Origin: a virus | Lineage: Duplodnaviria > Heunggongvirae > Uroviricota > Caudoviricetes | DNA length: 22,542 nt | Virus record (IMG/VR): IMGVR_UViG_3300014625_000037 | Location: 1-22,542 of that record | Direction: 5' to 3' (one strand) | In this document: positions 2,293 to 17,749 of the stretch, one piece after another | Layout of the letters: each line of letters begins with the position of its first letter | Numbering within the stretch: position 1 is the first letter of the stretch | Notes under the pieces: model-generated | What the model saw: the letters and a program-made list of their open reading frames with translations, nothing else | Told to the model about the DNA's origin: nothing | Databases searched by the model: none | Translations under genes and position numbers: made by a program

Positions 2293-2638
2293 TCTCTGCT
2301 CCTGTTGATACGGAAAGGGACACAGGCACGCCGTTATTCCGCCGCCCGGTCAGCTCCACCACCATTGAACCGTCAAAATTGCTGTTGATGGTGATGGAAT
2401 CCAGCGTCAGCCGTGGCTCCCAGCGACTCAGCGCCACATACACTGCCGACATGACCTGCAGGCGTAACGCCGGATTTTGTGGCTGGTCTATCAGTGCCGA
2501 CAGCAGGGAACCATATTCACGGCGAGCAATGCGGCTACCCTGCGGCGTCAGCAGAATGTCCCGCACCGACTGGCGCAGATGGTCAATATCAGTAATGGCT
2601 TTACCGCTGGTATTGTTCATCCCGCTATAAAGCGTCAT
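2279..2638 (-). CDS. W: Baseplate protein W (gp25/GPW-like)
   Basis: 119-aa ORF between V and J; overlapping stop/start with V (ATGA-type). Confidence 0.8.
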   Translation of the reverse strand: MTLYSGMNNTSGKAITDIDHLRQSVRDILLTPQGSRIARREYGSLLSALIDQPQNPALRLQVMSAVYVALSRWEPRLTLDSITINSNFDGSMVVELTGRRNNGVPVSLSVSTGAENGSD

Positions 2639-3213
2639 ACCGGGCCTCCGGTTGTGTCGCCGCCTTTCAGGACGCCAGTATGCTGATGTGCATCAACCAC
2701 AATTCCGTTAGAACTCATTGCACCGCCGCCCTGGGTAACACCACCATTCATCACTACTTCGCTGTTAATACGCGTGCGGTCAGCCTCCAGCACAAACTCA
2801 CTGGTTTTCATGGTGATGTTGTCAGCGGCCTCAATGACCATTGATTTGATGCCCCTGACATACCAGCGCCCGGTGGCGGGTTCGTATTCAAACCGGCCAC
2901 CGTCAGGATGTTCTGTCACGCAGGCGTCCGCCGACGTCGACGGTGGCGCAAACTGATTCGAATAGATGGCGGGTAACGCAAAGGCGGTTTCCAGATTGCC
3001 GCCCAGACTCAGCAGCACCACCTGCTCACCTTCCGATGGTCGCCACCATGTGCGGGCATTCCCGGCACGCAGCGTCAGCCAACTGATCCAGTTGGTTTCA
3101 AGCTCGCCCGTTTTCACCCGGCAAAGCCAGTTTTCCCTGTCCACTTCGGTGACTACCCCTGTGCGGATCAGGTTGGTGATAAGGCGCATGATTTCGGTTA
3201 ATTGTGCGTTCAT
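2635..3213 (-). CDS. V: Baseplate spike/assembly protein V
   Basis: 192-aa ORF, ATG start at 3213; N-terminal region resembles P2 gpV from memory; first gene of the V-W-J-I-H block. Confidence 0.8.
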   Translation of the reverse strand: MNAQLTEIMRLITNLIRTGVVTEVDRENWLCRVKTGELETNWISWLTLRAGNARTWWRPSEGEQVVLLSLGGNLETAFALPAIYSNQFAPPSTSADACVTEHPDGGRFEYEPATGRWYVRGIKSMVIEAADNITMKTSEFVLEADRTRINSEVVMNGGVTQGGGAMSSNGIVVDAHQHTGVLKGGDTTGGPV

Positions 3214-3259
3214 TTCTAAAGTGTCTCACATTAGAATGTCCTATCATTGCGAAGAAATT

Positions 3260-3277
3260 TGTATGAATGAAGATACA
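3260..3277. promoter_or_regulatory. TGT-N12-ACA dyad (candidate Ogr/Delta-type late activator site) upstream of V
   Basis: Sequence TGTatgaatgaagatACA read directly; lies in the S-V intergenic where P2 has its PV late promoter. A dyad of this form is also expected by chance several times in 22 kb. Confidence 0.3.
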
Positions 3278-3290
3278 AAATGGAGATTGA

Positions 3291-4142
3291 ATGTTTACTG
3301 TTGGTATTTACGGCTTTACTCTAACAAAGATAACTCACTTTTCATTCGGGACAATGTATCCAATAGAAACCAGTTTTTTTAAATTAAAAAAATATAGACA
3401 AGACAAGGAAAAATTATATCTTACTGCGCTCCTTGAACTTGACATCATAGACAAGAGCGAAACAGATGATATCATATTTCATCTAGAGAAAATTTTGAGT
3501 TTTATAGAACAGAGAGCAGTATTTATCAGACACCAACTAAATAATAAGACTCATAAATTTGACTTACCCATAGATTTCCCTCTCTTTATAACTCCTAATA
3601 TTAACTTATCAAGTTCAGGAGAAATCATTCTTGAAGATTGCTTTTCCAAAAACTCAAGACGCTACTTTATTGAACTTGCTATAAATAAGATCATCATTGC
3701 TAGAGATCGACCATTTACCACAATACTTCATAAAAATGTATTGGTTTTCTCTAATCCAATAAATTATCTTGATGTATCATATTACTTACTTTTTTCCGGC
3801 CTTGAGTCATTAGTTCGAGAACGTGAGAATGATTTTAAATCAAACATTACGCCAATAATGTATCGTTACCTCAAAAAGCATGGGTTTAATATAAATCAAC
3901 AAAACAATAAACATCATGACATCTCACTTGATATTTACTGTAGCTTAAGGAACGCATTATTTCACAATGGTCAATTCCAAACCATGCCGATGAAAAGAGG
4001 CTCTAAAACAATCAGTTTTGCACTAAAGGATTTTTACTCACAATTTAAACGATTAAACTGCCTCGTCATATTAAAAGAAGCAGAATTCAGCGATCATCAT
4101 ATCAACTGGAATTTTAGTGATTATAGAAACCCTTTTATATAA
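3291..4142 (+). CDS. AT-rich moron: hypothetical 283-aa protein with C-terminal HEPN-like R-x4-H motif (candidate abortive-infection/RNase-type defence protein)
   Basis: ATG at 3291 preceded by GGAG (3282-3285). Opposite strand to all flanking late genes. Strongly AT-rich codon usage (Ile/Asn/Lys/Phe rich). Motif RNALFH at residues 220-225 (nt 3948-3965). Confidence 0.6.
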   Translation: MFTVGIYGFTLTKITHFSFGTMYPIETSFFKLKKYRQDKEKLYLTALLELDIIDKSETDDIIFHLEKILSFIEQRAVFIRHQLNNKTHKFDLPIDFPLFITPNINLSSSGEIILEDCFSKNSRRYFIELAINKIIIARDRPFTTILHKNVLVFSNPINYLDVSYYLLFSGLESLVRERENDFKSNITPIMYRYLKKHGFNINQQNNKHHDISLDIYCSLRNALFHNGQFQTMPMKRGSKTISFALKDFYSQFKRLNCLVILKEAEFSDHHINWNFSDYRNPFI

Positions 4143-4143
4143 C

Positions 4144-4590
4144 TCACCCTGACAACCAATGAAGTAAAATATCATGAGTGATGGCCTCTAACTCATCGTT
4201 GCTCCCCAACAACTGCCGCTCTGCGTACCGTACCTCCGGTCCTTTGCGACTGACGCGATCACGTAGGCCGTAATGGTGAACACGGGCAATTCGCTGCACC
4301 TTACCTTCAAACTGCACGCTGGCAGAGTCGGCGCTGGCGGCAGTTTTCAGGTATTTTGTGGTGCGCAGCTTTGCAAACATCTGACGTTTGATGCGCCCCT
4401 TCTTGCTGCGTGCTGTTACCCTGCGCGGTTCATAACTGCTGCCATCTGGATTGCGCTGCATCCTGATATTCTGCTGCTGTGTCCGGCGCAGTTCCTGCGC
4501 CAGCTGGCGCATCATGCGGCTTCTCGTGGCTGGTTCCAGATTCGCCAGTAAGGCACTCAGCCAGTCGTCCACCTTCTGCAGTTCAGCCAC
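4144..4590 (-). CDS. S: Tail completion / virion morphogenesis protein (P2 gpS family)
   Basis: 148-aa ORF; motif QRNPDGSSYEPRR...KKGRIKR...RIARVHHYGLRD is typical of the phage virion morphogenesis family as I recall it. Apparent GTG start at 4590 overlapping the endolysin stop. Confidence 0.7.
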   Translation of the reverse strand: MAELQKVDDWLSALLANLEPATRSRMMRQLAQELRRTQQQNIRMQRNPDGSSYEPRRVTARSKKGRIKRQMFAKLRTTKYLKTAASADSASVQFEGKVQRIARVHHYGLRDRVSRKGPEVRYAERQLLGSNDELEAITHDILLHWLSG

Positions 4591-7852: not shown

Positions 7853-8686
7853 TCAGCAATTGGTCAGAGTGTCAGCGGGGGCGTTACCGCCTGTTGCACG
7901 CTGGCGGTAGTCCTGGCGGCTGTCTTCATGACTCAGCTTGTCCACCAGTTCGTTAAAGGCGGTCTGCTGTGCCTGCAGGGCAGTCTCCAGCTCAGACAGG
8001 CGTTCTTCCTGCTCAGACAGGGATTTTTCGGTGCGTGCGCTCAGGTTCTGCTGCTCAGTGGCGACCAGCTCCACGGCCTTATGCACATCAGAGAACCGGG
8101 CGTCATCGGACTGCTCTTTTTTGGTAAACAGCGCCGTGACGCGGGCAAACAGGGACGGTTTGTCGTCCTGGACTTCTTCCAGTTCGATCACCGTTTCCTC
8201 TGCAGCGGTAAAAAGATTGGCGGGATTCTGCTTGCGGTTTGCCAGCGGGTTATGGGCTGCACTGGCGCTGAATGTCAGCATTTCCGTACCCAGACTGGCG
8301 GGATCATCAGTGGCAGCCAGGCCGACCAGATAGGCTTTGCCCGTATCAGCGAACTTCGGGCTGACTTCCATAGAGGTGAATAATTTCTGGCCTTTTTTCA
8401 CCAGTTCCACCAGGGACTCCGTTGGCTCAACGTCGGCATACAGCGCCATCTTGCCTGCCAGCGGACCTTCCGTGATTTCTTCAGCAAACAGCGCCGTCAC
8501 CTTGCCGTAGCGGTTAAAGGTGCTGTCCGGCAGATAAGACTTGATGTGCTCAAGGTTAATCAGCGCGGTATACACCGCCGGGTTGTAGCTGGCTGCCATC
8601 TGTTCCAGCCATTCACGCTGGATTTCGCGTCCGTCGGTGGTGGCACCTTCCACCCCGATGCGAAAACGCTTTGCTTTCACTGTCAT
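7853..8686 (-). CDS. O: Capsid scaffolding protein O
   Basis: 277-aa ORF; N-terminus (FRIGVEG...DGR.I....) and Ala/Glu/Gln-rich coiled-coil C-terminus ending ...TNC resemble P2 gpO. Confidence 0.85.
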   Translation of the reverse strand: MTVKAKRFRIGVEGATTDGREIQREWLEQMAASYNPAVYTALINLEHIKSYLPDSTFNRYGKVTALFAEEITEGPLAGKMALYADVEPTESLVELVKKGQKLFTSMEVSPKFADTGKAYLVGLAATDDPASLGTEMLTFSASAAHNPLANRKQNPANLFTAAEETVIELEEVQDDKPSLFARVTALFTKKEQSDDARFSDVHKAVELVATEQQNLSARTEKSLSEQEERLSELETALQAQQTAFNELVDKLSHEDSRQDYRQRATGGNAPADTLTNC

Positions 8687-8764
8687 GAGCCGTGCTCCGT
8701 TAGAAAAAACTTACTGGAGCCTTATGGTTGCGGTGATAGGGGCAGTGAAACAATGCGCGGTATT

Positions 8765-8782
8765 TGTACCGACAACCACACA
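8765..8782. promoter_or_regulatory. TGT-N12-ACA dyad in the divergent O/P late promoter region
   Basis: TGTaccgacaaccacACA read directly; centred about 85 nt upstream of the O start codon in the O-P intergenic region. Confidence 0.35.
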
Positions 8783-8828
8783 AACCGCAGGCGGGGAAAG
8801 CCTTCATTCAAGGCTGTAGGTTTGTGCC

Positions 8829-10595
8829 ATGAACACCACACTGACACCCGCAGATCTCGATCCCCGTCGGCAGGCCATGCTGCTGTACTTTCAGGGATAC
8901 CGCGTCGCCCGCATTGCTGAAATGCTGGGCGAGAAAGTTGCAACCGTTCACAGCTGGAAAAAACGCGACAAGTGGGGTGACTATGGGCCGCTGGATCAGA
9001 TGCAGCTCACCACCGCCGCACGCTACTGCCAGCTCATTATGAAGGAGCACAAAGAAGGGAAAGATTTCAAAGAGATTGACCTGCTGGCGCGCCAGTCGGA
9101 GCGCCACGCGCGGATCGGCAAGTTTAACAATGGCGGCAACGAAGCCGACTTAAACCCTAACGTCGCCAACCGCAACAAAGGCCCACGCCGTCAGCCGGAA
9201 AAGAATGTTTTCACCGATGAGCAGATTGAGAAGCTGGAAGAAATCTTCCATTCCTCCATGTTCAACTACCAGCGCCACTGGTGGGAAGCCGGAAAAACCA
9301 ACCGCATCCGCAACCTGCTGAAGTCACGCCAGATCGGCGCGACCTTTTACTTTGCCCGTGAAGCCCTGATTGACGCTCTGCTTACCGGACGTAACCAGAT
9401 TTTCCTTTCTGCCAGTAAGGCACAGGCCCACGTCTTCAAACAGTACATCATCGACTTTGCCAAAGAAGTGGAGGTGGAGCTGAAAGGCGATCCGATGGTG
9501 CTTCCCAACGGGGCCACACTGTATTTCCTCGGAACCAATGCCCGCACGGCCCAGAGTTACCACGGCAACCTGTATCTGGATGAATATTTCTGGATACCGA
9601 AATTCCAGGAGCTGCGCAAAGTGGCTTCCGGTATGGCTATTCACAAAAAATGGCGACAAACCTATTTTTCCACGCCATCCAGCCTGACCCACAGTGCTTA
9701 TCCGTTCTGGTCCGGTGCGCTGTTCAACCGTGGACGCAACAAAGCTGACAAGGTGGACATCGACCTGTCCCACAGCAATCTGGCCCCCGGCCTGCTGTGC
9801 GCAGACGGGCAATACCGCCAGATAGTCACCGTGGAAGATGCGGTGCGCGGCGGCTGTAACCTGTTCGACCTCGACCAGCTACGCATGGAGTACAGCCCGG
9901 ACGAATACCAGAACCTGCTGATGTGCGAGTTCGTGGACGATCTCGCGTCCGTGTTCCCGCTCAGCGAACTGCAGGCGTGCATGGTGGACAGTTGGGAAGT
10001 CTGGACCGACTTTCATGCACTGGCCCTGCGCCCGTTTGGCTGGCGCGAGGTGTGGATCGGTTATGACCCGGCAAAAGGTACGCAGAACGGCGACAGCGCC
10101 GGATGCGTGGTGGTGGCACCGCCAGCCGTGCCAGGCGGTAAGTTTCGCATTCTTGAGCGTCACCAGTGGCGCGGGATGGACTTCCGCGCCCAGGCGGACG
10201 CCATCAAAAAACTGACCGAACAGTACAACGTGACCTATATCGGCATCGACTCGACAGGTGTCGGTCACGGGGTTTACGAGAACGTGAAAGCGTTTTTTCC
10301 AGCCGTCCGGGAGTTTGTCTACAACCCCAACGTTAAAAACGCCCTGGTACTCAAGGCCTACGACATTATCAGCCACCGCCGTCTGGAGTTTGACGCCGGA
10401 CACACCGACATAGCGCAGTCATTTATGGCAATCCGTCGCGCCACCACCGCCAGCGGCAACCGCCCGACCTATGAAGCCAGCCGCAGCGAAGAAGCCAGCC
10501 ACGCCGATCTGGCCTGGGCAACGATGCACGCTCTGTTTAACGAACCGCTGCAGGGCGAATCCGCCAATACCAGCAATATTGTGGAGATTTTTTGA
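8829..10595 (+). CDS. P: Terminase large (ATPase) subunit P
   Basis: 588-aa ORF; strong resemblance to P2 gpP along its length as I recall it (RRQAMLLYFQG...NPNVANRNKGPRRQPE...SRQIGATFYFAREAL...SEE.SHADLAWATMHAL). Confidence 0.9.
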   Translation: MNTTLTPADLDPRRQAMLLYFQGYRVARIAEMLGEKVATVHSWKKRDKWGDYGPLDQMQLTTAARYCQLIMKEHKEGKDFKEIDLLARQSERHARIGKFNNGGNEADLNPNVANRNKGPRRQPEKNVFTDEQIEKLEEIFHSSMFNYQRHWWEAGKTNRIRNLLKSRQIGATFYFAREALIDALLTGRNQIFLSASKAQAHVFKQYIIDFAKEVEVELKGDPMVLPNGATLYFLGTNARTAQSYHGNLYLDEYFWIPKFQELRKVASGMAIHKKWRQTYFSTPSSLTHSAYPFWSGALFNRGRNKADKVDIDLSHSNLAPGLLCADGQYRQIVTVEDAVRGGCNLFDLDQLRMEYSPDEYQNLLMCEFVDDLASVFPLSELQACMVDSWEVWTDFHALALRPFGWREVWIGYDPAKGTQNGDSAGCVVVAPPAVPGGKFRILERHQWRGMDFRAQADAIKKLTEQYNVTYIGIDSTGVGHGVYENVKAFFPAVREFVYNPNVKNALVLKAYDIISHRRLEFDAGHTDIAQSFMAIRRATTASGNRPTYEASRSEEASHADLAWATMHALFNEPLQGESANTSNIVEIF

Positions 10596-11617
10596 TGAAA
10601 GAACATATCGCGCCAGACGAAACCGTAACTGCAGAAGAAACTAAAAAATCCGTTGCGGAGGCTTTCAGCTTTGGTGATCCCATTCCTGTACTGGACCGCC
10701 GCGAACTGCTGGACTATGTGGAATGCGTACAGATGGATCGCTGGTATGAGCCGCCCGTCAGCTTTGACGGACTGGCGCGCACCTTCCGCGCCGCCGTGCA
10801 CCACAGCTCCCCGATCAGTGTTAAGCGTGACATTATCAGCAGTACCTATATTCCACATCGCCTTCTCAGCCAGCAGGCATTTACCCGTTTTGTGCAGGAC
10901 TATCTGGTTTTTGGTAACGCCTACCTGGAGAAACGCACGAACCGCTTTGGTGAAGTTATTTCGCTGGAACCTGCACTGGCAAAATACACCCGGCGCGGAC
11001 TTGACCTTGAAACATACTGGTTTGTGCAATACAGCCTGACGACACAGCCGTATCAGTTCACAAAAGGTAATGTCTTCCACCTGATGGAGCCGGATATCAA
11101 CCAGGAGATTTATGGTCTGCCGGGTTACCTTTCTGCCATTCCGTCAGCTCTGCTCAACGAATCCGCCACGCTGTTCCGCCGCAAGTATTACATCAACGGC
11201 AGTCATGCAGGCTTCATCATGTACATGACCGACGCCGCGCAGAACCAGGAGGATGTAAACAACCTCCGTAACGCGATGAAAAGCGCCAAAGGTCCAGGCA
11301 ACTTCCGTAATCTGTTTATGTACTCGCCTAACGGCAAAAAAGACGGGCTTCAGATTATCCCGTTATCAGAAGTCGCAGCGAAGGATGAGTTTCTGAATAT
11401 CAAGAACGTGAGCCGGGACGACATGATGGCAGCACACCGAGTGCCGCCGCAAATGATGGGGATTATGCCGAATAATGTTGGTGGATTTGGGGATGTGGAG
11501 AAAGCGAGTAAAGTTTTTGTGAGAAATGAACTGATCCCGCTGCAGAAGAGATTATTCGAGATAAATGTATGGCTAGGAGAAAATGTCATTACTTTCCAGC
11601 CATACAACTTAGATTAA
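10595..11617 (+). CDS. Q: Portal protein Q
   Basis: Track ORF starts at TTG 10592; ATG at 10595 overlaps the P stop (ATGA). About 340 aa as in P2 gpQ. Divergent from O as in P2. Confidence 0.85.
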   Translation: MKEHIAPDETVTAEETKKSVAEAFSFGDPIPVLDRRELLDYVECVQMDRWYEPPVSFDGLARTFRAAVHHSSPISVKRDIISSTYIPHRLLSQQAFTRFVQDYLVFGNAYLEKRTNRFGEVISLEPALAKYTRRGLDLETYWFVQYSLTTQPYQFTKGNVFHLMEPDINQEIYGLPGYLSAIPSALLNESATLFRRKYYINGSHAGFIMYMTDAAQNQEDVNNLRNAMKSAKGPGNFRNLFMYSPNGKKDGLQIIPLSEVAAKDEFLNIKNVSRDDMMAAHRVPPQMMGIMPNNVGGFGDVEKASKVFVRNELIPLQKRLFEINVWLGENVITFQPYNLD

Positions 11618-11665: not shown

Positions 11666-12670
11666 TTATTCTTCTGAATCATCATAAACATCCATTCCTT
11701 CGGTCTGATTTCTAATATAAGAAGCCCCCATAGAATTAGCAATCGCAGTCCGAATTAACCCTACATGAGTGAAAAACACCCCTAACCTAGCACGCTTTAA
11801 CTCAGACTCATCATCATAGTCATCTTCATTACTTATAATTCTTCTAACCATTGCCTTATCTTCGTCAATAGCCGAAGGTAGCCCACTCTTTAAAGCGTCA
11901 ATACACTCACCTACAGTTATAATTTTATTTTTAATTAATTCAGAAAGCAAATCATCATAATTTTCATCATCAGATTTATTATCAGGTGGTAATTCACTTG
12001 CAGCTATCATTTTCAGCAATTCTACGTCAAGCATAGTTCCTCTATCTAGTCTGCTTGTCTCAACATACCCCTCACGCTCTGATAACACTCTTTCAAATTC
12101 GAAATCAACGACTTCAAGCAAAGCAGATACTCTATTAATTGCTCGCCTAAGAGGAAGTGGAACACTTTGCTCTTTTTTGTATTGCAGTTTATGAGATGCT
12201 GCAGCCCAAATATGCTGAGAAAGCGTTCGTATTTGCACCTCCACTTTCATATTTTTAAAATCACTAAAGGATGGAACTCTTAGCCATTCTTCTGGAGGTT
12301 GTATTACATAATGATGAGATTGGTACCCAAATCTATCCTCATCCAGTTCATCAAGTTTATTCTCTTGCTTCAAAATAATGAAATGTTCTTTCAGACAAGA
12401 TATAACCTTTTCAACATCTCGCTTAAATAGCATTATTAATCGGATTCCAACATAATCATCCAAGTCAACTATTGACTCAATCTTTAGAGGTTTTCGGTTA
12501 TCCTTATTAATAATAGAACTTAATGTTTTGACACGGCTTTCAATTGGAACCCCTAAAGACAATTTATTCTCCGACAAAATAACATCAATTTGCTCAACCA
12601 TAACTCGTCTGAACAATTCCGCAACTGAGCCGTAAATTGAATGCTGTTCTTTTAATTCTTCGTCTGTCAT
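11666..12670 (-). CDS. RelA/SpoT-domain nucleotidyltransferase, 334 aa (candidate fused toxSAS/CapRel-like defence protein or small alarmone synthetase)
   Basis: ATG at 12670 with AGGTAAGA upstream. Synthetase-domain motifs RVKTLSS (46-52), DYVGIRL (72-78), GYQSHH (115-120), EVQIRTLSQHIWAAASH (144-160). C-terminal ~150 aa acidic domain without obvious motif. AT-rich. No adjacent small ORF. Confidence 0.75.
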   Translation of the reverse strand: MTDEELKEQHSIYGSVAELFRRVMVEQIDVILSENKLSLGVPIESRVKTLSSIINKDNRKPLKIESIVDLDDYVGIRLIMLFKRDVEKVISCLKEHFIILKQENKLDELDEDRFGYQSHHYVIQPPEEWLRVPSFSDFKNMKVEVQIRTLSQHIWAAASHKLQYKKEQSVPLPLRRAINRVSALLEVVDFEFERVLSEREGYVETSRLDRGTMLDVELLKMIAASELPPDNKSDDENYDDLLSELIKNKIITVGECIDALKSGLPSAIDEDKAMVRRIISNEDDYDDESELKRARLGVFFTHVGLIRTAIANSMGASYIRNQTEGMDVYDDSEE

Positions 12671-12787
12671 CTATCTTACCTAACTTATATAAATGAATCA
12701 GATATAAAACATTGCATAATTTTAATTCAAGTGGACAACATATAAATTATCCGATCTAAACCACTTAAACAACAGGTTTTGCGCGCG

Positions 12788-12806
12788 CTCGTATCCCCGC
12801 CACGCC
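12788..12806. other. Candidate cos (cohesive end) site
   Basis: Minus-strand reading GGCGTGGCGGGGATACGAG shares its first 13 nt with the 186/P2 cohesive-end sequence as I remember it (GGCGTGGCGGGGAAAGCAT); a short inverted repeat cccgcc/ggcggg lies nearby at 12857-12874. Confidence 0.4.
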
Positions 12807-12966
12807 TGCCCGCTTTATGTAGCGGTTTTCATGCGCCTGCATGACATAAGCAAAATCCCGCCACTCCTGGCGGGCCTCAGCTAAAACGATCCTCAAACGA
12901 TCATGCGGATTCATGCGGCATAGACATGCACAATCTCCAAAGCGAGCATCGAGACTTTTTGGAAAC

Positions 12967-13578
12967 CTACGTAACCACAGTTAATGTGTGCATCCTGTCT
13001 CGAATTGCATCACACGTCTCATCAAAAAGCTTGATGATGGTTGTATGGTTCAACTCCGCCTCTTTCCAATAATTTTGCCCGTCAAATTCTGGATCGCTAT
13101 GCTTAAACGATATTGACTCTGAAAGGCATTCCTTCCGGAAACGGTCCAAGATTATATAAACCTCTGGTGAGATGAACGGTTTGTTAGATTCAACACTTGT
13201 AACAAAAGTGTTAAATGCATCAGAAAAAACTTTCAACCTTCTAAATTTTCTCTCTTCAAATGGTTCGTTGGGGTCAACATGATCCAGCGCAGGCCTCAGC
13301 TTAAGCACGCTTTCTCTGGTTTCAAACATCGAATTCCAAATGAGACTATATGCTGATAACTCCTTATCAAAATACGCTTTCGTTACATAAACAGAATTGT
13401 CTAACTTAGCCTTTATTCTTTCATTAGTTGCACTCAGTTGTGATTGAAATTCAGCAATATCTTTGTTTAGCCGCGACTTATATCTTTCTAAATAAACTTT
13501 CCCGATCCAAACAAATATGCCAGATGCAACAAAAGACACCCCACCCAACGAAGCCAGAACTTTAAAGACTAAATCCAT
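12967..13578 (-). CDS. Hypothetical membrane-anchored protein, 203 aa (single N-terminal TM helix)
   Basis: ATG at 13578; N-terminal hydrophobic segment VLASLGGVSFVASGIFVWIG followed by a ~170-aa soluble domain; AT-rich; sits beside cos at the position P2 uses for old/tin. Confidence 0.65.
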   Translation of the reverse strand: MDLVFKVLASLGGVSFVASGIFVWIGKVYLERYKSRLNKDIAEFQSQLSATNERIKAKLDNSVYVTKAYFDKELSAYSLIWNSMFETRESVLKLRPALDHVDPNEPFEERKFRRLKVFSDAFNTFVTSVESNKPFISPEVYIILDRFRKECLSESISFKHSDPEFDGQNYWKEAELNHTTIIKLFDETCDAIRDRMHTLTVVT

Positions 13579-13626
13579 TGCGCCCCCACCTGCAAAAATA
13601 GTATTCCATTATAAGCTAATACATTT

Positions 13627-13842
13627 TTAATCAAACAGGGGATAATTCGCGTCAACCTCATCACTTCTCTGCTCTACCCTAGTGACTTCCATCAAAAACC
13701 CCAGGCCGTCATATAGCGAAACGGGGAATTCCAGCTCAAGCCAGAAGCAGTCTTCATAGATGCGGCCCAACCAAAAACCTCCGCCACACTCCTTTGGGCG
13801 TTGAAAGAAGACCCAGTCGCCAAGGGTTAAACGTTCCAGCAC
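13627..13842 (-). CDS. Questionable 71-aa ORF (GTG start)
   Basis: Only a GTG start; no convincing RBS found; could be a gene remnant. Confidence 0.2.
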   Translation of the reverse strand: MLERLTLGDWVFFQRPKECGGGFWLGRIYEDCFWLELEFPVSLYDGLGFLMEVTRVEQRSDEVDANYPLFD

Positions 13843-13960
13843 CTAGCCCCGATAAATAATCTGGTGATTACTGTCTTTTTTACCCATGGCTAACGCCTCG
13901 CTACTCTCGTTGTTCAACCTTGCTGACGTCAGATTCAAGTTCTTACATCAGGAACGTTCC

Positions 13961-14194
13961 TTAGTGCAGCCAGCTGTCGTCTTCCCAAACCTGTTGCATA
14001 ATTTCCATCACCCGCTTTTTGTCTTCATCAAGCTTTAAGCCACTCAGCTCAACGCCGTTTGCCGACCCTTTACGGATGCGGATAGCGGTCTTGGGATAGA
14101 TGGGTTGCAGGTTGCGGTAAAGCTCGGACTCCAGAGCGTCCAGGGTAGACTGGCTAATCTTCTGCTCTTTATCGATCATTATTTCAATGCGCAT
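13961..14194 (-). CDS. DinI-like protein
   Basis: Preferred start MRIEIMID... at ATG 14194 with GAGGTGA upstream; 77 aa; N-terminus and C-terminal ...EIMQQVWEDDSW resemble E. coli DinI (MRIEVTIAK...ILQETWESADDW) from memory. Confidence 0.75.
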   Translation of the reverse strand: MRIEIMIDKEQKISQSTLDALESELYRNLQPIYPKTAIRIRKGSANGVELSGLKLDEDKKRVMEIMQQVWEDDSWLH

Positions 14195-14204
14195 AAAAGT
14201 CACC

Positions 14205-14393
14205 TCAGCTGATGACATCCATTGAGCGGTTGTATTCGTGGCTTCTGATTTTTGCCATGAGTTCATCAGTCAATTCAGAAACCCACTGCAGGGCCAGCCC
14301 CTTCTCTTCATCACTACACTCACTAGCCGCTACAAGCTTAAGAAAAAAATCAATGCGCTGGAGCTTCAAAGACTCCAAAAAATAGTCCTGCAT
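14205..14393 (-). CDS. Small hypothetical protein (62 aa), first gene of SOS-regulated operon; possible antirepressor
   Basis: ATG at 14393 preceded by TAGGAGGAAAG; the longer track ORF (to 14495) would place the LexA box inside the coding sequence, so it is rejected. Confidence 0.55.
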   Translation of the reverse strand: MQDYFLESLKLQRIDFFLKLVAASECSDEEKGLALQWVSELTDELMAKIRSHEYNRSMDVIS

Positions 14394-14434
14394 CTTTCCT
14401 CCTATGACACCGCAAACAATACTGTATAGATAAC

Positions 14435-14454
14435 CACTGTTTATATTTACAGTA
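14435..14454. promoter_or_regulatory. LexA (SOS) box
   Basis: cACTGTttatatttACAGTa read directly; matches consensus TACTGT-N8-ACAGTA (CTGT-N8-ACAG). Lies 42-61 nt upstream of the small ORF start on the transcribed strand, overlapping candidate -10 TATACT. Confidence 0.7.
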
Positions 14455-14546
14455 TATGATAATCTTACTGATGTAAAACGTTTTTTTACGTTCATCAGCC
14501 TGATATGCCTGGTATTATTAAGAGCACGAATTGTTAACCCGCGTAA

Positions 14547-16919
14547 TTAATACAGGTTCCGCCACTTATCATCTTCCTGCAAACGCTGGTTCCGATAGAA
14601 GACACGCAGGCCTGCTCCTGACGGAATACTGCCGCCGCGAAGGAGTAAATCGACCTCTTTCTCGCTGCCATCAAATCCTCTGGACTTCAGTTCATAGACG
14701 AGCTGCTGTCGTTGATGGTCTGTAATTCGCTGTTTGTAGTCTCTACGCCGTTTCGGTTTCACCAGGCGTAACCTTGCAGCCAGTTCCCGGCGCTCTTTTT
14801 TGTTCATACTGTGCAGGTAATCGTGCAACTCCTTGTCATCCATGTGGGTAATGTCCGTTCTGGTATCCCCATCAGCTGATTTGTCTTTCCCTTGTTGGTT
14901 CAAATTTTCAGCAAGGGGACAGTTATTGCCACGAGTCCAAGGGGCGCAAGCGCCCTGGTCGGCTGCCGCCTCCTGAACATCAACGGCCTTACGAACCATT
15001 TTCCACTTCACGGCATGAGTGCAGATCTTGCCCTCTGCAATAGGTGACCAGATGCCATAAATACGAATGCCGTGATCGCCATAGGCGGTCGGCTCTTCGT
15101 TGATTTCATAAGCGGTTCTGATGAGGTGATATTTGCGGGGAACCAGTACGCCGCCCTGCTTCATGATGTAGGTGGCAAAACAACCAGCATCAGCAGCAGC
15201 CAGGATGGCATCAAGGCGTGGGTTATCCAGTACCGGCGCACCTGCTTTTTTGTCCCCCTGTTGCCTTGCCGCCTGACCAGCCAGCAATCGCAGTTCACGG
15301 TAAGCCTGACGCCCCGGAATGCCAAAGAAACGGAATTGCTGAACACGATGCAGAGACGCCCAGGCATTAACGTATTCAGCATTATCACGCAGGGATTTCC
15401 CCGTTTCCTTGCTGATCTCGCCAGCCAGACCACGCCCGTCAATGTTCTTACTGATGTATTTCGCGATGTAGCTTGTTGGCGTTCCTTTGCGCGGGTTAAT
15501 CAACTCAGACTTAAAGCGCGGCCCAGTGTTATTGCCCAGCTCCTCGCGGTCTTCACGGATGGCAAACTTACGCAGTAATGCAGTGATGGCACGGCGGTCT
15601 TTTTTGCGCATGAAACACAACAGGTGCCAGTGAACTGTGCCGTCATGATGCGGCTCAGCCACCCGCACGCCATACCAGCGCAACCCGGCTTTGTGCATCG
15701 CCTTACGAAATGCAGCAAACATGCCGACCAGATAATCGCTGCTTTGTCTTACCGTCGCGTTTGTCCAGGTCGGGTTTGGTCTGCCGTTATTGAGCGTGGA
15801 ATGGAAACGTGACGGACAGGTGATGGTGTAGAAAACGGCGCAGTCACCGCGCATTTCCGCGATAAGCTCCAGACCTTTAACACAGGCCATCATCTCATTG
15901 CGGCGATGCGCCGGGTTGCTGCTGCTGGCGTTTACCACATCCTCCATGTCCAGCGTGTCGCCGTCTTCGTTCACCAGTTCATGAGAACGGAAAAACTCCA
16001 GCGACTTACGGCGCTGCTCACGTTTATGCATCACGGCTTCATAGCTGACATAGGGAGATGCTTTTTTGCTGACCAGGCAGACAGCACGCAACTGCTCTTC
16101 CCGCCATTCGCAACGCATCTTCCATAATTTCCGGTACCACCAGTCAGCGCACAACATACGCGCCAGCGAACCCGGAATGAGTTCATAGGGCACGGGTTTA
16201 CGGCGGTTTCTTTTCCGGCGGAGTTGCTCAAACGCAGGCGGGATGACATCCAGACGCAGGGTTTCCGCTGCCACCTTTTCCCATGTCTTGCGGATTTCTT
16301 CTGGCTTAACGTCATCGGTGACATACAAATCGCCACAAGCTGCATCAAGGCACATGCTCATATGCGCAGCTACCAGGGTGGACAGGCGTTTCACCTGATC
16401 CTGACTCATTTCAGGCAGGATCAGCAGGCCGTCCAGCCCTTCATGGCTTGCCATAAAGCGAAAAGAAGTGGATAGCTGACAGTCGCGTACATGCTCCAGC
16501 CGTTCCAGACATGGCTTAATCGTCTCACGCAAATAGCGGGAATAAGCCTTTGGCCTGCCCAGGCTGCTGAAGTATTCAATACGTTGCATCAGCGGCTTGC
16601 TGATATGGGAAGGCTGGGCATTGACGTCCGCCAGAATGACCATATCTGGATTAAAACGCTGCTGCTCATGCGCCAGCTTTGCCCGACTAATGAGCTTATC
16701 CTGCTCCATTTCGCGCTGGACAGGATCACGGGATTCATTAAAGAAATAACGCTCCCAGACCTGATCACTCAGTGCCTCGCGGCGCAGCTGTTCCTGCTCG
16801 TTATCGGCAGCGTACAGAGCGATCAGGTTTGAAAGCGCAGAAACTGAAGATTGCTCTTCTGTCTCTACGTAAGGATTGATTGCTTTTTTCTCAGCATTCC
16901 AGGAATAGCTGTAGTTCAT
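14547..16919 (-). CDS. A: Replication initiation protein A (rolling-circle nickase)
   Basis: Track ORF has a TTG start at 16970; ATG at 16919 (MNYSYSW...) overlaps the upstream stop (TAATG). About 790 aa, size and position as P2/186 gene A. Confidence 0.85.
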
Positions 16920-17749
16920 TACGCAATCTCCAGTTCGAGCTGTGAAGGCTGCAAACCATTCGACAGCCAATCAGAAACTGAAGGTGGGCGAACAGCTTCA
17001 ATTGCACCTTTTAAAATTGCGCAACGGTTTTTCAGAATGACAGCTTTCAGCTCCTTTTCCGTCAGATTGCGCGAATACTCAGCCTCCTGAATAGCCCGCG
17101 TCAGCTCAGGATATTTGCTATTAAATTTGGGGACATTGCAGGCAAGATTTGTACTGTCGGCAGTCGCCAGTGGGTAATTTCCCAACACACGACCGTCAAG
17201 CATGCGCAAACCATGAACAGCTGTTTTGAAATTGTGTCGGCAATAAATTGCTTCAAAAGCGTCCTGCATACGATGATGCCAGTGCGCAGTTCTGATAGCC
17301 GCATATTCACCAGACGATCCAAAGCAGACACGAGGCCATTCACGACATAGCTCGATAAGCCGATCGATTGACTCGTGCAGATGCCAGACGGGAGTTGCCT
17401 TCCCGTAGAACATTTTCGGAACTTCGTTTATCAGGGCATCATTGTCACGTTCACCTCCGTCCACAACATCAGGAATGACAAAAAAAGCGACCTTAGGATG
17501 GTGGTAATAGTTCAGGAGCCATTTATAAAAATCACTCCAGTTAATTTTTAGCCCACGCACCCATGCAGAAAATGCGCCGTTATCAATGCCGACGACCTGA
17601 GCGTGCTGAATGGACGCCGCAATCTGATCTGGTCGTACATAGGAGACGAAAGCGCCAGCTCCGCTCACCGCAATACGATGAACGTCGCCAGCACTTCCCC
17701 AGACAGGCGTCCCATGGAAATGATGAATTCCGTGGTGCATTTCTTTCAC
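16919..17749 (-). CDS. Hypothetical early protein, 276 aa, translationally coupled between Dam and A
   Basis: GTG at 17749 overlapping the Dam stop, or ATG at 17740; His-rich N-terminus; no family recognised with confidence. Confidence 0.6.

What the first reader, a model, noticed from the sequence alone, without database searches (positions are those of the whole stretch)
3214..4143. AT-rich HEPN-motif gene inserted antisense inside the late tail operon between S and V
In P2, S is followed directly by V. Here an 852-bp ORF on the opposite strand fills the gap, its stop 1 nt from the S stop and its start 77 bp from the V start. Composition is sharply more AT-rich than the flanks. The C-terminus carries RNALFH (R220-x4-H225), the minimal HEPN RNase signature found in many Abi and toxin proteins. 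Late transcription must read through it antisense, suggesting expression mainly in the lysogen. This is not a classic P2 cargo site, so the insertion point and the protein may both be undescribed.
Basis: partly seen in the sequence, partly recalled or inferred. Interest (0 to 1): 0.75.

Follow-up and report, generated by a model that had tools for sequence, protein, structure and literature searches.

The report
Prophage-borne HEPN RNase-like cargo gene
A P2-like prophage carries, in a long-known variable slot between two tail genes, a single AT-rich gene for an uncharacterised two-domain protein with a predicted HEPN ribonuclease domain; it is most likely an anti-phage or toxin effector, so a plausible new family rather than a new kind of system.

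Summary
The sequence observation is correct. An 852-bp ORF (3291..4142, +, 283 aa, GC about 0.31) lies antisense between S and V, 1 nt from the S stop and 77 bp from the V start, and it carries RNALFH at R220-H225.

Part of the framing is wrong. P2 itself has an antisense, nonessential gene (orf30) in exactly this slot. The slot is one of three classic P2 variable regions. It lies between two late operons, not inside one. The Ogr-type box of the V promoter sits at 3260-3277.

The HEPN call holds:
- The AlphaFold model is confident (pLDDT 91).
- Both HEPN signatures, E172-x3-R176 and R220-N-x3-H225, are essentially invariant in 113 homologs down to 18% identity.

The protein matches no Pfam, PADLOC or NCBIfam model, and it is not ApeA by profile comparison. 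Its N-terminal alpha/beta domain has no detected relative.

The gene is always solitary. It occurs in the P2 slot in E. coli, Salmonella and Klebsiella, as a Vibrio integron cassette, and in integrase islands. Other phages carry ApeA, PDC-S49 and other Rx4H proteins in the same slot.

Best reading: a single-gene, infection-gated HEPN RNase used for defence. This is untested. I rate it a new member of a known kind, of moderate interest.

The parts
3214..4143 (.). AT-rich swapped segment filling the S/V (orf30) slot of a P2-like prophage
   Evidence: GC is 0.30-0.34 against 0.55-0.61 in the flanks. Relatives with 95-97% identical flanks have only 68 bp here. No flanking direct or inverted repeats were found.
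3291..4142 (+). Cargo gene, 283 aa: PHROG 4373, an uncharacterised two-domain HEPN protein
   Evidence: Listed as an ORF. Full-length match to phrog_4373, E 2e-135. 29 homologs by word-index search and 190 representatives by profile search. AF2 model pLDDT 91, pTM 0.90.
3291..3650 (+). N-terminal alpha/beta domain (about aa 1-120, order beta-beta-alpha-beta-alpha-beta), no detected relatives; inferred sensor or regulatory domain
   Evidence: Secondary structure from the model. Conserved G8, P24, L44, T45, F71 and V77. No Pfam, PDB or Foldseek hits.
3651..4139 (+). C-terminal HEPN domain (about aa 121-283): helices 122-150, 156-179, insert 186-196, 213-226, 245-263
3804..3818 (+). E172-x3-R176, the Ex3[KR] motif in predicted HEPN helix 2
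   Evidence: E in 112/113 and R/K in 110/113 homologs. This motif is described for HEPN families in PMC3710099.
3948..3965 (+). R220-N221-A-L-F-H225, the R[NDH]x3H catalytic motif at the end of predicted helix 3
   Evidence: Codons read directly from the sequence. Invariant in 30/30 homologs. In the wider alignment R is 109/109, H is 109/111, and position 221 is N, H or D. Its position matches the HEPN description in PMC3710099.
3282..3285 (+). GGAG Shine-Dalgarno, 5 nt upstream of the cargo ATG
   Evidence: Read from the sequence.
3260..3277 (.). TGT-N12-ACA Ogr/Delta-type activator box of the late V promoter, centred 55 bp upstream of the V ATG
   Evidence: Pattern search. It aligns with the equivalent box in four related phages with filled or empty slots, at the same distance from the V start. 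P2 lacks an exact N12 box there, but its annotated activator site has the same geometry.
3230..3237 (.). ATTAGAAT element. It reads TCTAAT on the V strand (likely pV -10) and TAGAAT on the cargo strand (candidate -10 for the cargo gene). Function is inferred.
   Evidence: Conserved between the window, RE2010 and the E. coli P0007 locus. The consensus promoter scan did not call it.
2635..3213 (-). Baseplate hub gene V, left border of the slot
   Evidence: annotated 'phage baseplate assembly protein V' in the identical E. coli locus.
4144..4590 (-). Tail completion / virion morphogenesis gene S, right border of the slot
   Evidence: Pfam Phage_tail_S on the equivalent gene in L010.

Best explanation
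The region is a moron-type cargo cassette in the orf30 variable slot of a P2-like (Peduoviridae) prophage. The slot runs from the stop codon of tail gene S to the Ogr-dependent promoter of baseplate gene V. The cassette is essentially one ribosome-binding site plus one gene.

Its 283-aa product has a family-specific N-terminal alpha/beta domain and a C-terminal HEPN domain with an intact active-site signature (E172-x3-R176 and R220-N-x3-H225).

Most likely (inferred) mechanism:
- The protein is made at a low level in the lysogen.
- It is held inactive by, or through, its N-terminal domain.
- On infection by another phage it becomes an active metal-independent RNase that cuts tRNA, mRNA or rRNA.
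- Translation stops and the infection aborts.

During the prophage's own late phase, convergent transcription from the O operon and Ogr-driven use of the overlapping V promoter could lower its expression (inferred).

Shown: position, composition, fold prediction, motif conservation, solitary mobile distribution, and known defence genes in the same slot of other phages. Inferred: RNase activity, gating by the N-terminal domain, the defence phenotype and the transcription pattern.
For: Fold and motifs:
- The model is confident (pLDDT 91, pTM 0.90).
- Both HEPN signatures are near-invariant in 113 homologs of 18-99% identity.
- They sit where the HEPN literature places them: the acidic Ex3[KR] in helix 2, and Rx4H with a polar residue after R at the end of helix 3 (PMC3710099).

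Single-gene autonomy:
- In the Vibrio tubiashii chromosomal integron the gene is a single-gene cassette, with an attC-like repeat on each side.
- It is solitary in integrase islands, among housekeeping genes, and in the P2 slot of E. coli, Salmonella and Klebsiella phages.
- No conserved neighbour appears in any of these contexts.

The slot behaves as an accessory and defence site:
- 102 related loci had both S and V. Of these, 77 slots are empty and 25 carry AT-rich antisense cargo from 13 unrelated protein families.
- That cargo includes ApeA (PADLOC E 1.4e-13), PDC-S49 (E 4.9e-150) and several other Rx4H proteins.

Precedents:
- ApeA is a single-gene HEPN defence protein with sensor domains (bioRxiv 10.64898/2026.01.26.701840).
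- A HEPN-like single-gene integron cassette, Esos, protects against phages (bioRxiv 10.1101/2024.07.02.601686).

Promoter layout: the late-promoter box at 3260-3277 and the empty-slot comparison define the cassette limits.
Against: - There is no experimental datum for any member of the family.
- No paper in the library mentions accession WP_000495507.
- No PADLOC, Pfam or NCBIfam model matches the protein or 29 of its homologs.
- Profile comparison with an ApeA-type HEPN alignment is negative.
- The N-terminal domain has no identified fold, so its gating role is a guess.
- No sigma-70 consensus promoter was called upstream of the ATG. Expression in the lysogen is therefore unproven.
- Location in a cargo slot is only guilt by association. 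Many slot cargoes are membrane proteins of unknown role.
- The gene is rare: 6 of 5426 complete E. coli genomes, against 1037 that carry this type of V gene.
Confidence: 0.6

Rival explanations
1. The protein is an active HEPN RNase that serves the prophage itself rather than defence. Possible roles are a post-segregational or addiction toxin stabilising the prophage, exclusion of P4-type satellites or related P2 phages, or remodelling of host RNA during lytic growth.
For: The fold and motif evidence is the same as for the main explanation. HEPN toxins are common in toxin-antitoxin and selfish modules (PMC3710099). The family has stayed in the same slot of P2-like phages while diverging to 37-57% identity, and a 1-nt junction with S is kept in three lineages. 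That fits a phage-linked role.
Against: No antitoxin gene or conserved partner is present in any of seven contexts. No RNA family was detected in the slot. The gene also lives outside phages, as an integron cassette and in chromosomal sites. Its antisense placement relative to late genes argues against a role in the lytic programme.
Confidence: 0.17
2. It is a small member of the ApeA family. In that case it would be a tRNA anticodon nuclease assembled into rings and switched on by deoxydinucleotides from host DNA breakdown.
For: UniRef names 82%-identical Salmonella homologs 'Apea-like HEPN domain-containing protein'. A true ApeA (584 aa) occupies the same slot in another phage (L108). The plan of N-terminal extra domain plus C-terminal HEPN in a single gene is shared.
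Against: The PADLOC ApeA and Pfam HEPN_Apea models do not match the protein or 29 homologs even at E<=1. hhalign of the family profile against an ApeA-type HEPN alignment gives probability 0.3%. The same profile against the single ApeA sequence gives 0.07%. The protein is half the size and lacks the N-terminal and Mid domains described for ApeA.
Confidence: 0.1
3. The HEPN domain is non-catalytic. It would be a ligand-, nucleotide- or protein-binding module, and the protein would do something unrelated to RNA cleavage, or be a decaying remnant.
Against: Non-catalytic HEPN domains typically lose Rx4-6H. Here R, the polar residue after it, H and the upstream E are the most conserved positions of the family. 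The ORF is intact in all six E. coli genomes and in the homologs examined in phages and other genomes.
Confidence: 0.1
4. It is a chance ORF in AT-rich spacer DNA, not a gene.
For: None beyond the absence of a called promoter.
Against: An 852-bp ORF in DNA of 31% GC is unlikely by chance. It has full-length homologs at 18-99% identity with conserved motifs, a well-spaced GGAG and a confident structure prediction.
Confidence: 0.01

Closest known systems
HEPN superfamily RNases (Anantharaman et al. 2013, PMC3710099), e.g. HepT toxins (PDB 5yep, 7ae2, 8xdj)
   Different: No sequence-profile match to any curated HEPN family. It carries an extra 120-residue N-terminal alpha/beta domain. There is no adjacent MNT antitoxin gene.
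ApeA single-gene anti-phage defence (PADLOC ApeA; bioRxiv 10.64898/2026.01.26.701840)
   Same: A single gene with a C-terminal HEPN effector and non-catalytic N-terminal domain(s). ApeA occupies the same S/V slot in another P2-like phage (L108). UniRef gives homologs an 'Apea-like HEPN' label.
   Different: 283 aa against about 580 aa. The ApeA N-terminal and Mid domains are absent. HMM and profile-profile comparisons are negative. Target and activator are unknown.
P2 orf30 locus (one of three classic P2 variable regions, with TO/old-tin and Z/fun)
   Same: Same position between the S stop and the Ogr box of pV. Same antisense orientation, same low GC, nonessential single ORF.
   Different: The protein is unrelated to P2 Orf30 (BLASTP E 0.72). 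P2 has an annotated terminator between S and orf30, whereas here the two stop codons are 1 nt apart.
Integron-cassette HEPN proteins (PDB 3jrt family; Esos defence cassette of the V. cholerae superintegron)
   Same: The Vibrio homolog of this family is a single-gene integron cassette. Esos sets a precedent for a lone HEPN-like cassette protecting against phages.
Abortive-infection HEPN proteins AbiV, AbiA (HEPN domain), AbiD/F, RnlA/LsoA
   Different: No Pfam or PADLOC match to Abi_2, AbiV or RnlA models. The domain architecture differs.

Membership tests
HEPN superfamily | Four-helix up-down bundle (two alpha-hairpins), often with an insert between helices 2 and 3 | tested here: met
HEPN superfamily | Rx4-6H motif at the end of helix 3, with a polar residue (N/D/H) after R | tested here: met
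   R220-N221-x3-H225 lies at the C-terminal end of predicted helix 213-226. R is 109/109, H is 109/111, and position 221 is N, H or D.
HEPN superfamily | Conserved acidic residue in helix 2, typically as Ex3[KR] | tested here: met
   E172-x3-R176 lies in predicted helix 156-179. E is 112/113 and R/K is 110/113.
HEPN superfamily | Metal-independent RNase activity from a composite dimer active site | not testable with these tools
   Needs biochemistry. No multimer prediction tool was available.
ApeA (PADLOC ApeA / Pfam PF18739 HEPN_Apea) | Match to the family profile | tested here: not met
   No PADLOC or Pfam hit for the protein or for any of 30 family members at E<=1. hhalign against an ApeA-type alignment gives probability 0.3%.
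ApeA (PADLOC ApeA / Pfam PF18739 HEPN_Apea) | Three-domain protein of about 580 aa (N-terminal, Mid, split HEPN) forming ring oligomers | tested here: not met
   The protein is 283 aa with two domains, against the description. Oligomeric state is not testable here.
HepT-MNT (type VII) toxin-antitoxin | Adjacent MNT nucleotidyltransferase antitoxin gene and a minimal HEPN of about 130 aa | tested here: not met
   The slot holds one ORF only. No conserved neighbour appears in seven contexts. The protein has an extra N-terminal domain.
P2 orf30-locus cargo (variable slot between S and pV) | Lies between the S stop and the Ogr box of the V promoter, antisense, low GC, absent from close relatives | tested here: met
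P2 Orf30 protein family | Sequence homology to P2 Orf30 | tested here: not met
   BLASTP best E 0.72.
Integron cassette HEPN (PDB 3jrt) | Sequence or close structural similarity to 3jrt | tested here: inconclusive
Abi_2 (AbiD/F), RnlA, Swt1 HEPN families | Match to the Pfam or PADLOC model | tested here: not met
   No hits at E<=10.
Anti-phage defence system (functional class) | Protection against phage when expressed | not testable with these tools
   Support is contextual only: defence genes in the same slot and integron or island contexts.

The most novel reading that the evidence does not exclude
This family may be a previously unrecognised, compact single-gene defence system. It would pair a new kind of N-terminal sensor domain with a HEPN RNase, and it would be shared between the P2 S/V slot, Vibrio integron cassettes and genomic islands.

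The S/V (orf30) slot would then be a third, HEPN-rich defence hotspot of P2-like phages. Its layout (cargo promoter overlapping the Ogr-dependent V promoter, cargo 3' end abutting S) could let the phage silence its own RNase by promoter competition and convergent late transcription once it enters the lytic cycle.
Probability: 0.3. Interest if true: 0.6.

Novelty: new member of a known kind. Interest (0 to 1): 0.42.

Why it matters
If the protein is an infection-triggered RNase, three things follow. It would add a small, easily cloned single-gene system to the HEPN defence repertoire. It would provide a new sensor domain whose trigger could be identified. It would also draw attention to the orf30 slot, which the defence-hotspot surveys consulted here (Rousset 2022, Vassallo 2022, iLund4u) do not name as a hotspot. 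In my sample the slot already holds ApeA, PDC-S49 and several other Rx4H proteins.

The tight head-to-head and tail-to-tail packing with late genes offers a testable case of how a temperate phage might avoid self-harm from its own toxic cargo.

If the gene has no phenotype, the finding is one more hypothetical moron in a known variable locus.

Tried and rejected
- Curated family libraries: Pfam, PADLOC and NCBIfam scans of the protein gave nothing. A Pfam scan of 30 family members gave only noise.
- PDB by sequence: the family profile against PDB sequences hit only designed TPR proteins, through many weak repeats matching 'LRNALFHNG' to 'LGNAYYKQG'. I judged this spurious.
- Foldseek against PDB and BFVD found nothing significant.
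- The afdb50 library was not available, so AlphaFold-database neighbours and the N-terminal domain fold remain unknown.
- Homology to P2 Orf30 and to the Cartapus slot protein was rejected.
- ApeA membership was rejected by hhalign against one ApeA sequence and against an ApeA-type alignment. A comparison with another Rx4H slot protein was also negative.
- An MNT-like N-terminal domain, which would make a fused toxin-antitoxin, was also rejected. No GSx..DxD-type motif is conserved.
- The promoter and terminator scan found no terminator and only two promoter-like sites, both inside the ORF.
- Rfam found nothing credible.
- No flanking repeats point to transposition.
- An exact-accession search of the paper library returned nothing.

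Full report
**1. The observation**

The window is a P2-like prophage read in reverse orientation. The relevant features are:
- Baseplate gene V at 2635..3213 (-).
- Tail completion gene S at 4144..4590 (-).
- A 283-codon ORF between them at 3291..4142 (+).

The stop codons of the ORF and of S are separated by one base. The two start codons are 77 bp apart. GC drops to 0.30-0.34 over 3151-4200, against 0.55-0.61 on both sides. The codons at 3948-3965 read R-N-A-L-F-H, residues 220-225. Every coordinate and number in the finding is therefore correct.

**2.

The P2 reference record annotates Orf30 between S and V. It is 261 aa, nonessential and on the opposite strand. The same record places a putative terminator for the O operon after S, and an activator-binding site for the V promoter just beyond the start of orf30.

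The literature treats this locus as a known variable region:
- A 2010 comparison of P2-like phages lists the orf30 locus with the TO region and the Z/fun region. These are the three places where genes not found in P2 are commonly seen (PMC3091744).
- The R18C genome paper describes a different ORF replacing orf30 between V and S (PMC6823313).

In this window a TGT-N12-ACA box lies at 3260-3277. Its centre is 55 bp from the V ATG, the same geometry as the annotated P2 site. The only two other matches in the window fall in the O/P divergent late-promoter region. An equivalent box aligns in RE2010, Cartapus and two empty-slot phages, at the same distance from the V start. P2 itself lacks an exact N12 box there.

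The gene therefore sits between two late transcription units, in a classic cargo site. It is not inside an operon at a new site.

**3. Limits of the cassette**

Phages whose flanks are 95-97% identical have V and S separated by only 68 bp (Escherichia phage 500465-1, Klebsiella phage KP12). In them the S stop lies 4 nt beyond the Ogr box.

In the window, the inserted material beyond the box is 13 nt of leader (including GGAG at 3282-3285), the ORF, and one base. The 46 bp between the V ATG and the box also differ from the empty-slot phages. They resemble RE2010 and another E. coli carrier of the family, sharing an ATTAGAAT element. That element reads TCTAAT on the V strand and TAGAAT on the cargo strand. 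I infer overlapping divergent -10 elements, but the consensus scan did not call a promoter there.

No intrinsic terminator was found between S and the cargo. Late O-operon transcripts may therefore run antisense through the gene. No flanking repeats and no Rfam family were found.

**4. The protein**

No Pfam, PADLOC or NCBIfam model matches it. It is PHROG 4373, function unknown, matched end to end.

The family is small:
- A word-index search found 29 relatives.
- An exhaustive profile search of 1.84 billion representatives found 190. Most of the listed hits longer than about 240 aa are near 280 aa and match end to end.

In 30 sequences RNALFH is invariant. In 113 sequences of 18-99% identity the counts are:
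- R220 in 109/109.
- H225 in 109/111.
- Position 221 is N, H or D.
- E172 in 112/113.
- R176 is R or K in 110/113.

These are the two HEPN signatures described by Anantharaman et al. One is Rx4-6H with a polar residue after R, at the end of helix 3. The other is an acidic residue in helix 2, usually as Ex3[KR] (PMC3710099).

AlphaFold2 on the family alignment gave pLDDT 91 and pTM 0.90. The model has a beta-beta-alpha-beta-alpha-beta N-terminal domain (about residues 1-120). The helical C-terminal domain has helices 122-150, 156-179 (E172, R176), an insert at 186-196, 213-226 (R220..H225 at its end) and 245-263.

- Las1.

UniRef labels 82%-identical Salmonella homologs 'Apea-like HEPN domain-containing protein'. 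Three results argue against ApeA membership:
- No family member matches the Pfam or PADLOC ApeA models.
- Profile-profile comparison with an alignment built from a true ApeA HEPN region gave 0.3% probability.
- ApeA is about 580 aa with three domains.

I file the protein in the HEPN superfamily, not in ApeA.

**5. Distribution**

The exact protein is on more than 300 contigs of E. coli. It is in only 6 of 5426 complete E. coli genomes, whereas 1037 genomes carry this type of V gene.

Homologs occupy the same slot in three other P2-like elements:
- Salmonella phage RE-2010, 57% identity.
- Klebsiella phage ST437-OXA245phi4.1, 37% identity.
- Another E. coli prophage, 45% identity.

The 1-nt junction with S is kept in the E. 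coli and Salmonella lineages.

Outside phages the gene is also solitary:
- In Vibrio tubiashii it is a single-gene cassette between attC-like repeats. The array has 13-14 repeats and sits next to an integrase.
- In Pseudomonas and V. alginolyticus it sits in integrase or resolvase islands.
- In one genome it lies between unrelated chromosomal genes.
- In one metagenome it is inserted in a shikimate-pathway operon.

No neighbour is conserved across these contexts. That argues for a self-contained, mobile, one-gene function with no separate antitoxin.

**6. The slot as a cargo site**

I fetched 110 loci through the V protein, and 102 of them had both S and V. Of these, 77 slots were empty and 25 held cargo of 560-2000 bp. 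All the cargo is antisense to S and V, and all has GC 0.32-0.39. It falls into 13 unrelated protein families, none of them the window's family.

One cargo is ApeA (584 aa, PADLOC E 1.4e-13), which is split into two ORFs in a sister locus. One is PDC-S49 (E 4.9e-150). One locus pairs an endonuclease/exonuclease/phosphatase protein with a 170-aa protein carrying RNNIVH. Others carry RDKIAH or RNIIIH; the RNIIIH protein also has a sub-threshold HEPN_Apea hit. Several are membrane proteins.

The slot thus carries known defence genes and is rich in Rx4H proteins. The published hotspot surveys consulted name other P2 sites:
- The A-Q (old/tin) locus and the Z/fun locus (PMC9122126; PMC9519451).
- A locus near CI (bioRxiv 10.1101/2024.10.15.618418).

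A 2026 study mentions defence systems 'within the tail genes' and 'downstream of GpL' without resolving this slot (PMC13586616).

**7. Mechanism and verdict**

Best-supported reading, confidence about 0.6: a lysogen-expressed single-gene HEPN RNase, kept inactive through its N-terminal domain. Infection by another phage switches it on, and translation arrest aborts that infection. Its expression may be reduced by the phage's own late transcription.

What is shown:
- The anatomy and position of the cassette.
- The predicted fold.
- The conservation of the two motifs.
- The solitary, mobile distribution.
- The company the slot keeps in other phages.

What is inferred:
- RNase activity.
- The trigger.
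- The defence phenotype.
- The transcription pattern.

The rivals are:
- A selfish or addiction role.
- ApeA membership.
- A non-catalytic HEPN.
- A chance ORF, which is excluded by conservation.

The finding is real, but less new than claimed. The site is known, the superfamily is known, and a public database already hints at HEPN. The family itself is uncharacterised, and its N-terminal domain has no detected relative. I rate it a new member of a known kind, of moderate interest.

Noticed in passing
window 11666-13578 (between portal Q 10592..11617 and gpA 14547..16970): The classic old/tin hotspot of this prophage holds AT-rich cargo (GC 0.34-0.41). One gene encodes a 334-aa RelA/SpoT-domain protein (Pfam PF04607 E 7.6e-20; PADLOC candidate PDC-S33 E 1.8e-16), a possible small alarmone-synthetase toxin or defence gene. 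The other is a 203-aa ORF with no family.
   Followed up: partly
L002 29718-34182 compared with window 11666-14500: E. coli LR9-2 carries the S/V cargo at 100% identity. In the old/tin hotspot it has a 334-aa gene at the same offset from the portal gene (annotated GTP pyrophosphokinase; not aligned to the window's RelA/SpoT gene), followed by SIR2 plus an ATP-binding protein where the window has the 203-aa ORF. The two cargo sites therefore appear to swap independently on near-identical backbones.
   Followed up: partly
L013-L122 (S/V slot of 102 P2-like loci): 77 slots are empty (68-bp spacer). 25 are filled with AT-rich antisense cargo from 13 unrelated protein families. These include ApeA (L108), PDC-S49 (L019), an EEP nuclease plus a 170-aa RNNIVH protein (L040), other Rx4H proteins (L093, L028) and membrane proteins. 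The slot looks like an under-described, HEPN-rich defence hotspot.
   Followed up: partly
L107 versus L108 (S/V slot): The 584-aa ApeA ORF of L108 is split into 372-aa and 195-aa ORFs in L107, whose slot is 2 bp shorter. This suggests a frameshift pseudogene or a sequencing error.
   Followed up: no
L006 3280-16870 (Vibrio tubiashii chromosome 2): The homolog P0011 is one cassette of a chromosomal integron. An integrase lies at 3280..4251, there are 13-14 attC-like repeats, and the ORFs are nearly all co-oriented. The cassette at 8001..8870 is flanked by repeats at 7885-7991 and 8872-9015.
   Followed up: yes
L125 5001-5846 and L126 1718-2563 (metagenome contigs): A family member (P0018) sits co-oriented inside an aromatic amino-acid biosynthesis cluster, between shikimate dehydrogenase and EPSP synthase. 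This is an odd place for a putative toxin or defence gene.
   Followed up: no
window 8765-8782 and 8823-8840: The only other TGT-N12-ACA matches in the window fall in the divergent O/P late-promoter region. All three matches therefore coincide with expected Ogr-dependent promoters, although the total count is not above chance.
   Followed up: partly
window 4140-4146; L004 3350-3356; L010 1068-1074: The 1-nt gap between the cargo stop and the S stop is kept in E. coli and Salmonella carriers whose cargo proteins are only 45-57% identical. The Klebsiella carrier has 22 nt. This suggests long residence in the slot, or a constraint on the junction.
   Followed up: no
window 3214-3237 and L003 (P2) 2226-2309: The likely V promoter -10 lies only about 16 nt from the V ATG, and no clear Shine-Dalgarno precedes V. 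The P2 record places the V transcription start at the ATG itself. V may therefore be translated from a very short or absent leader.
   Followed up: no
window 3394-3476: Two imperfect direct repeats of 30 nt (ATAGACAAGA...) lie 53 bp apart inside the cargo ORF. Each coincides with a promoter-like TAGACA-N16-TATC(A/T)T site on the + strand. Their significance is unknown.
   Followed up: no
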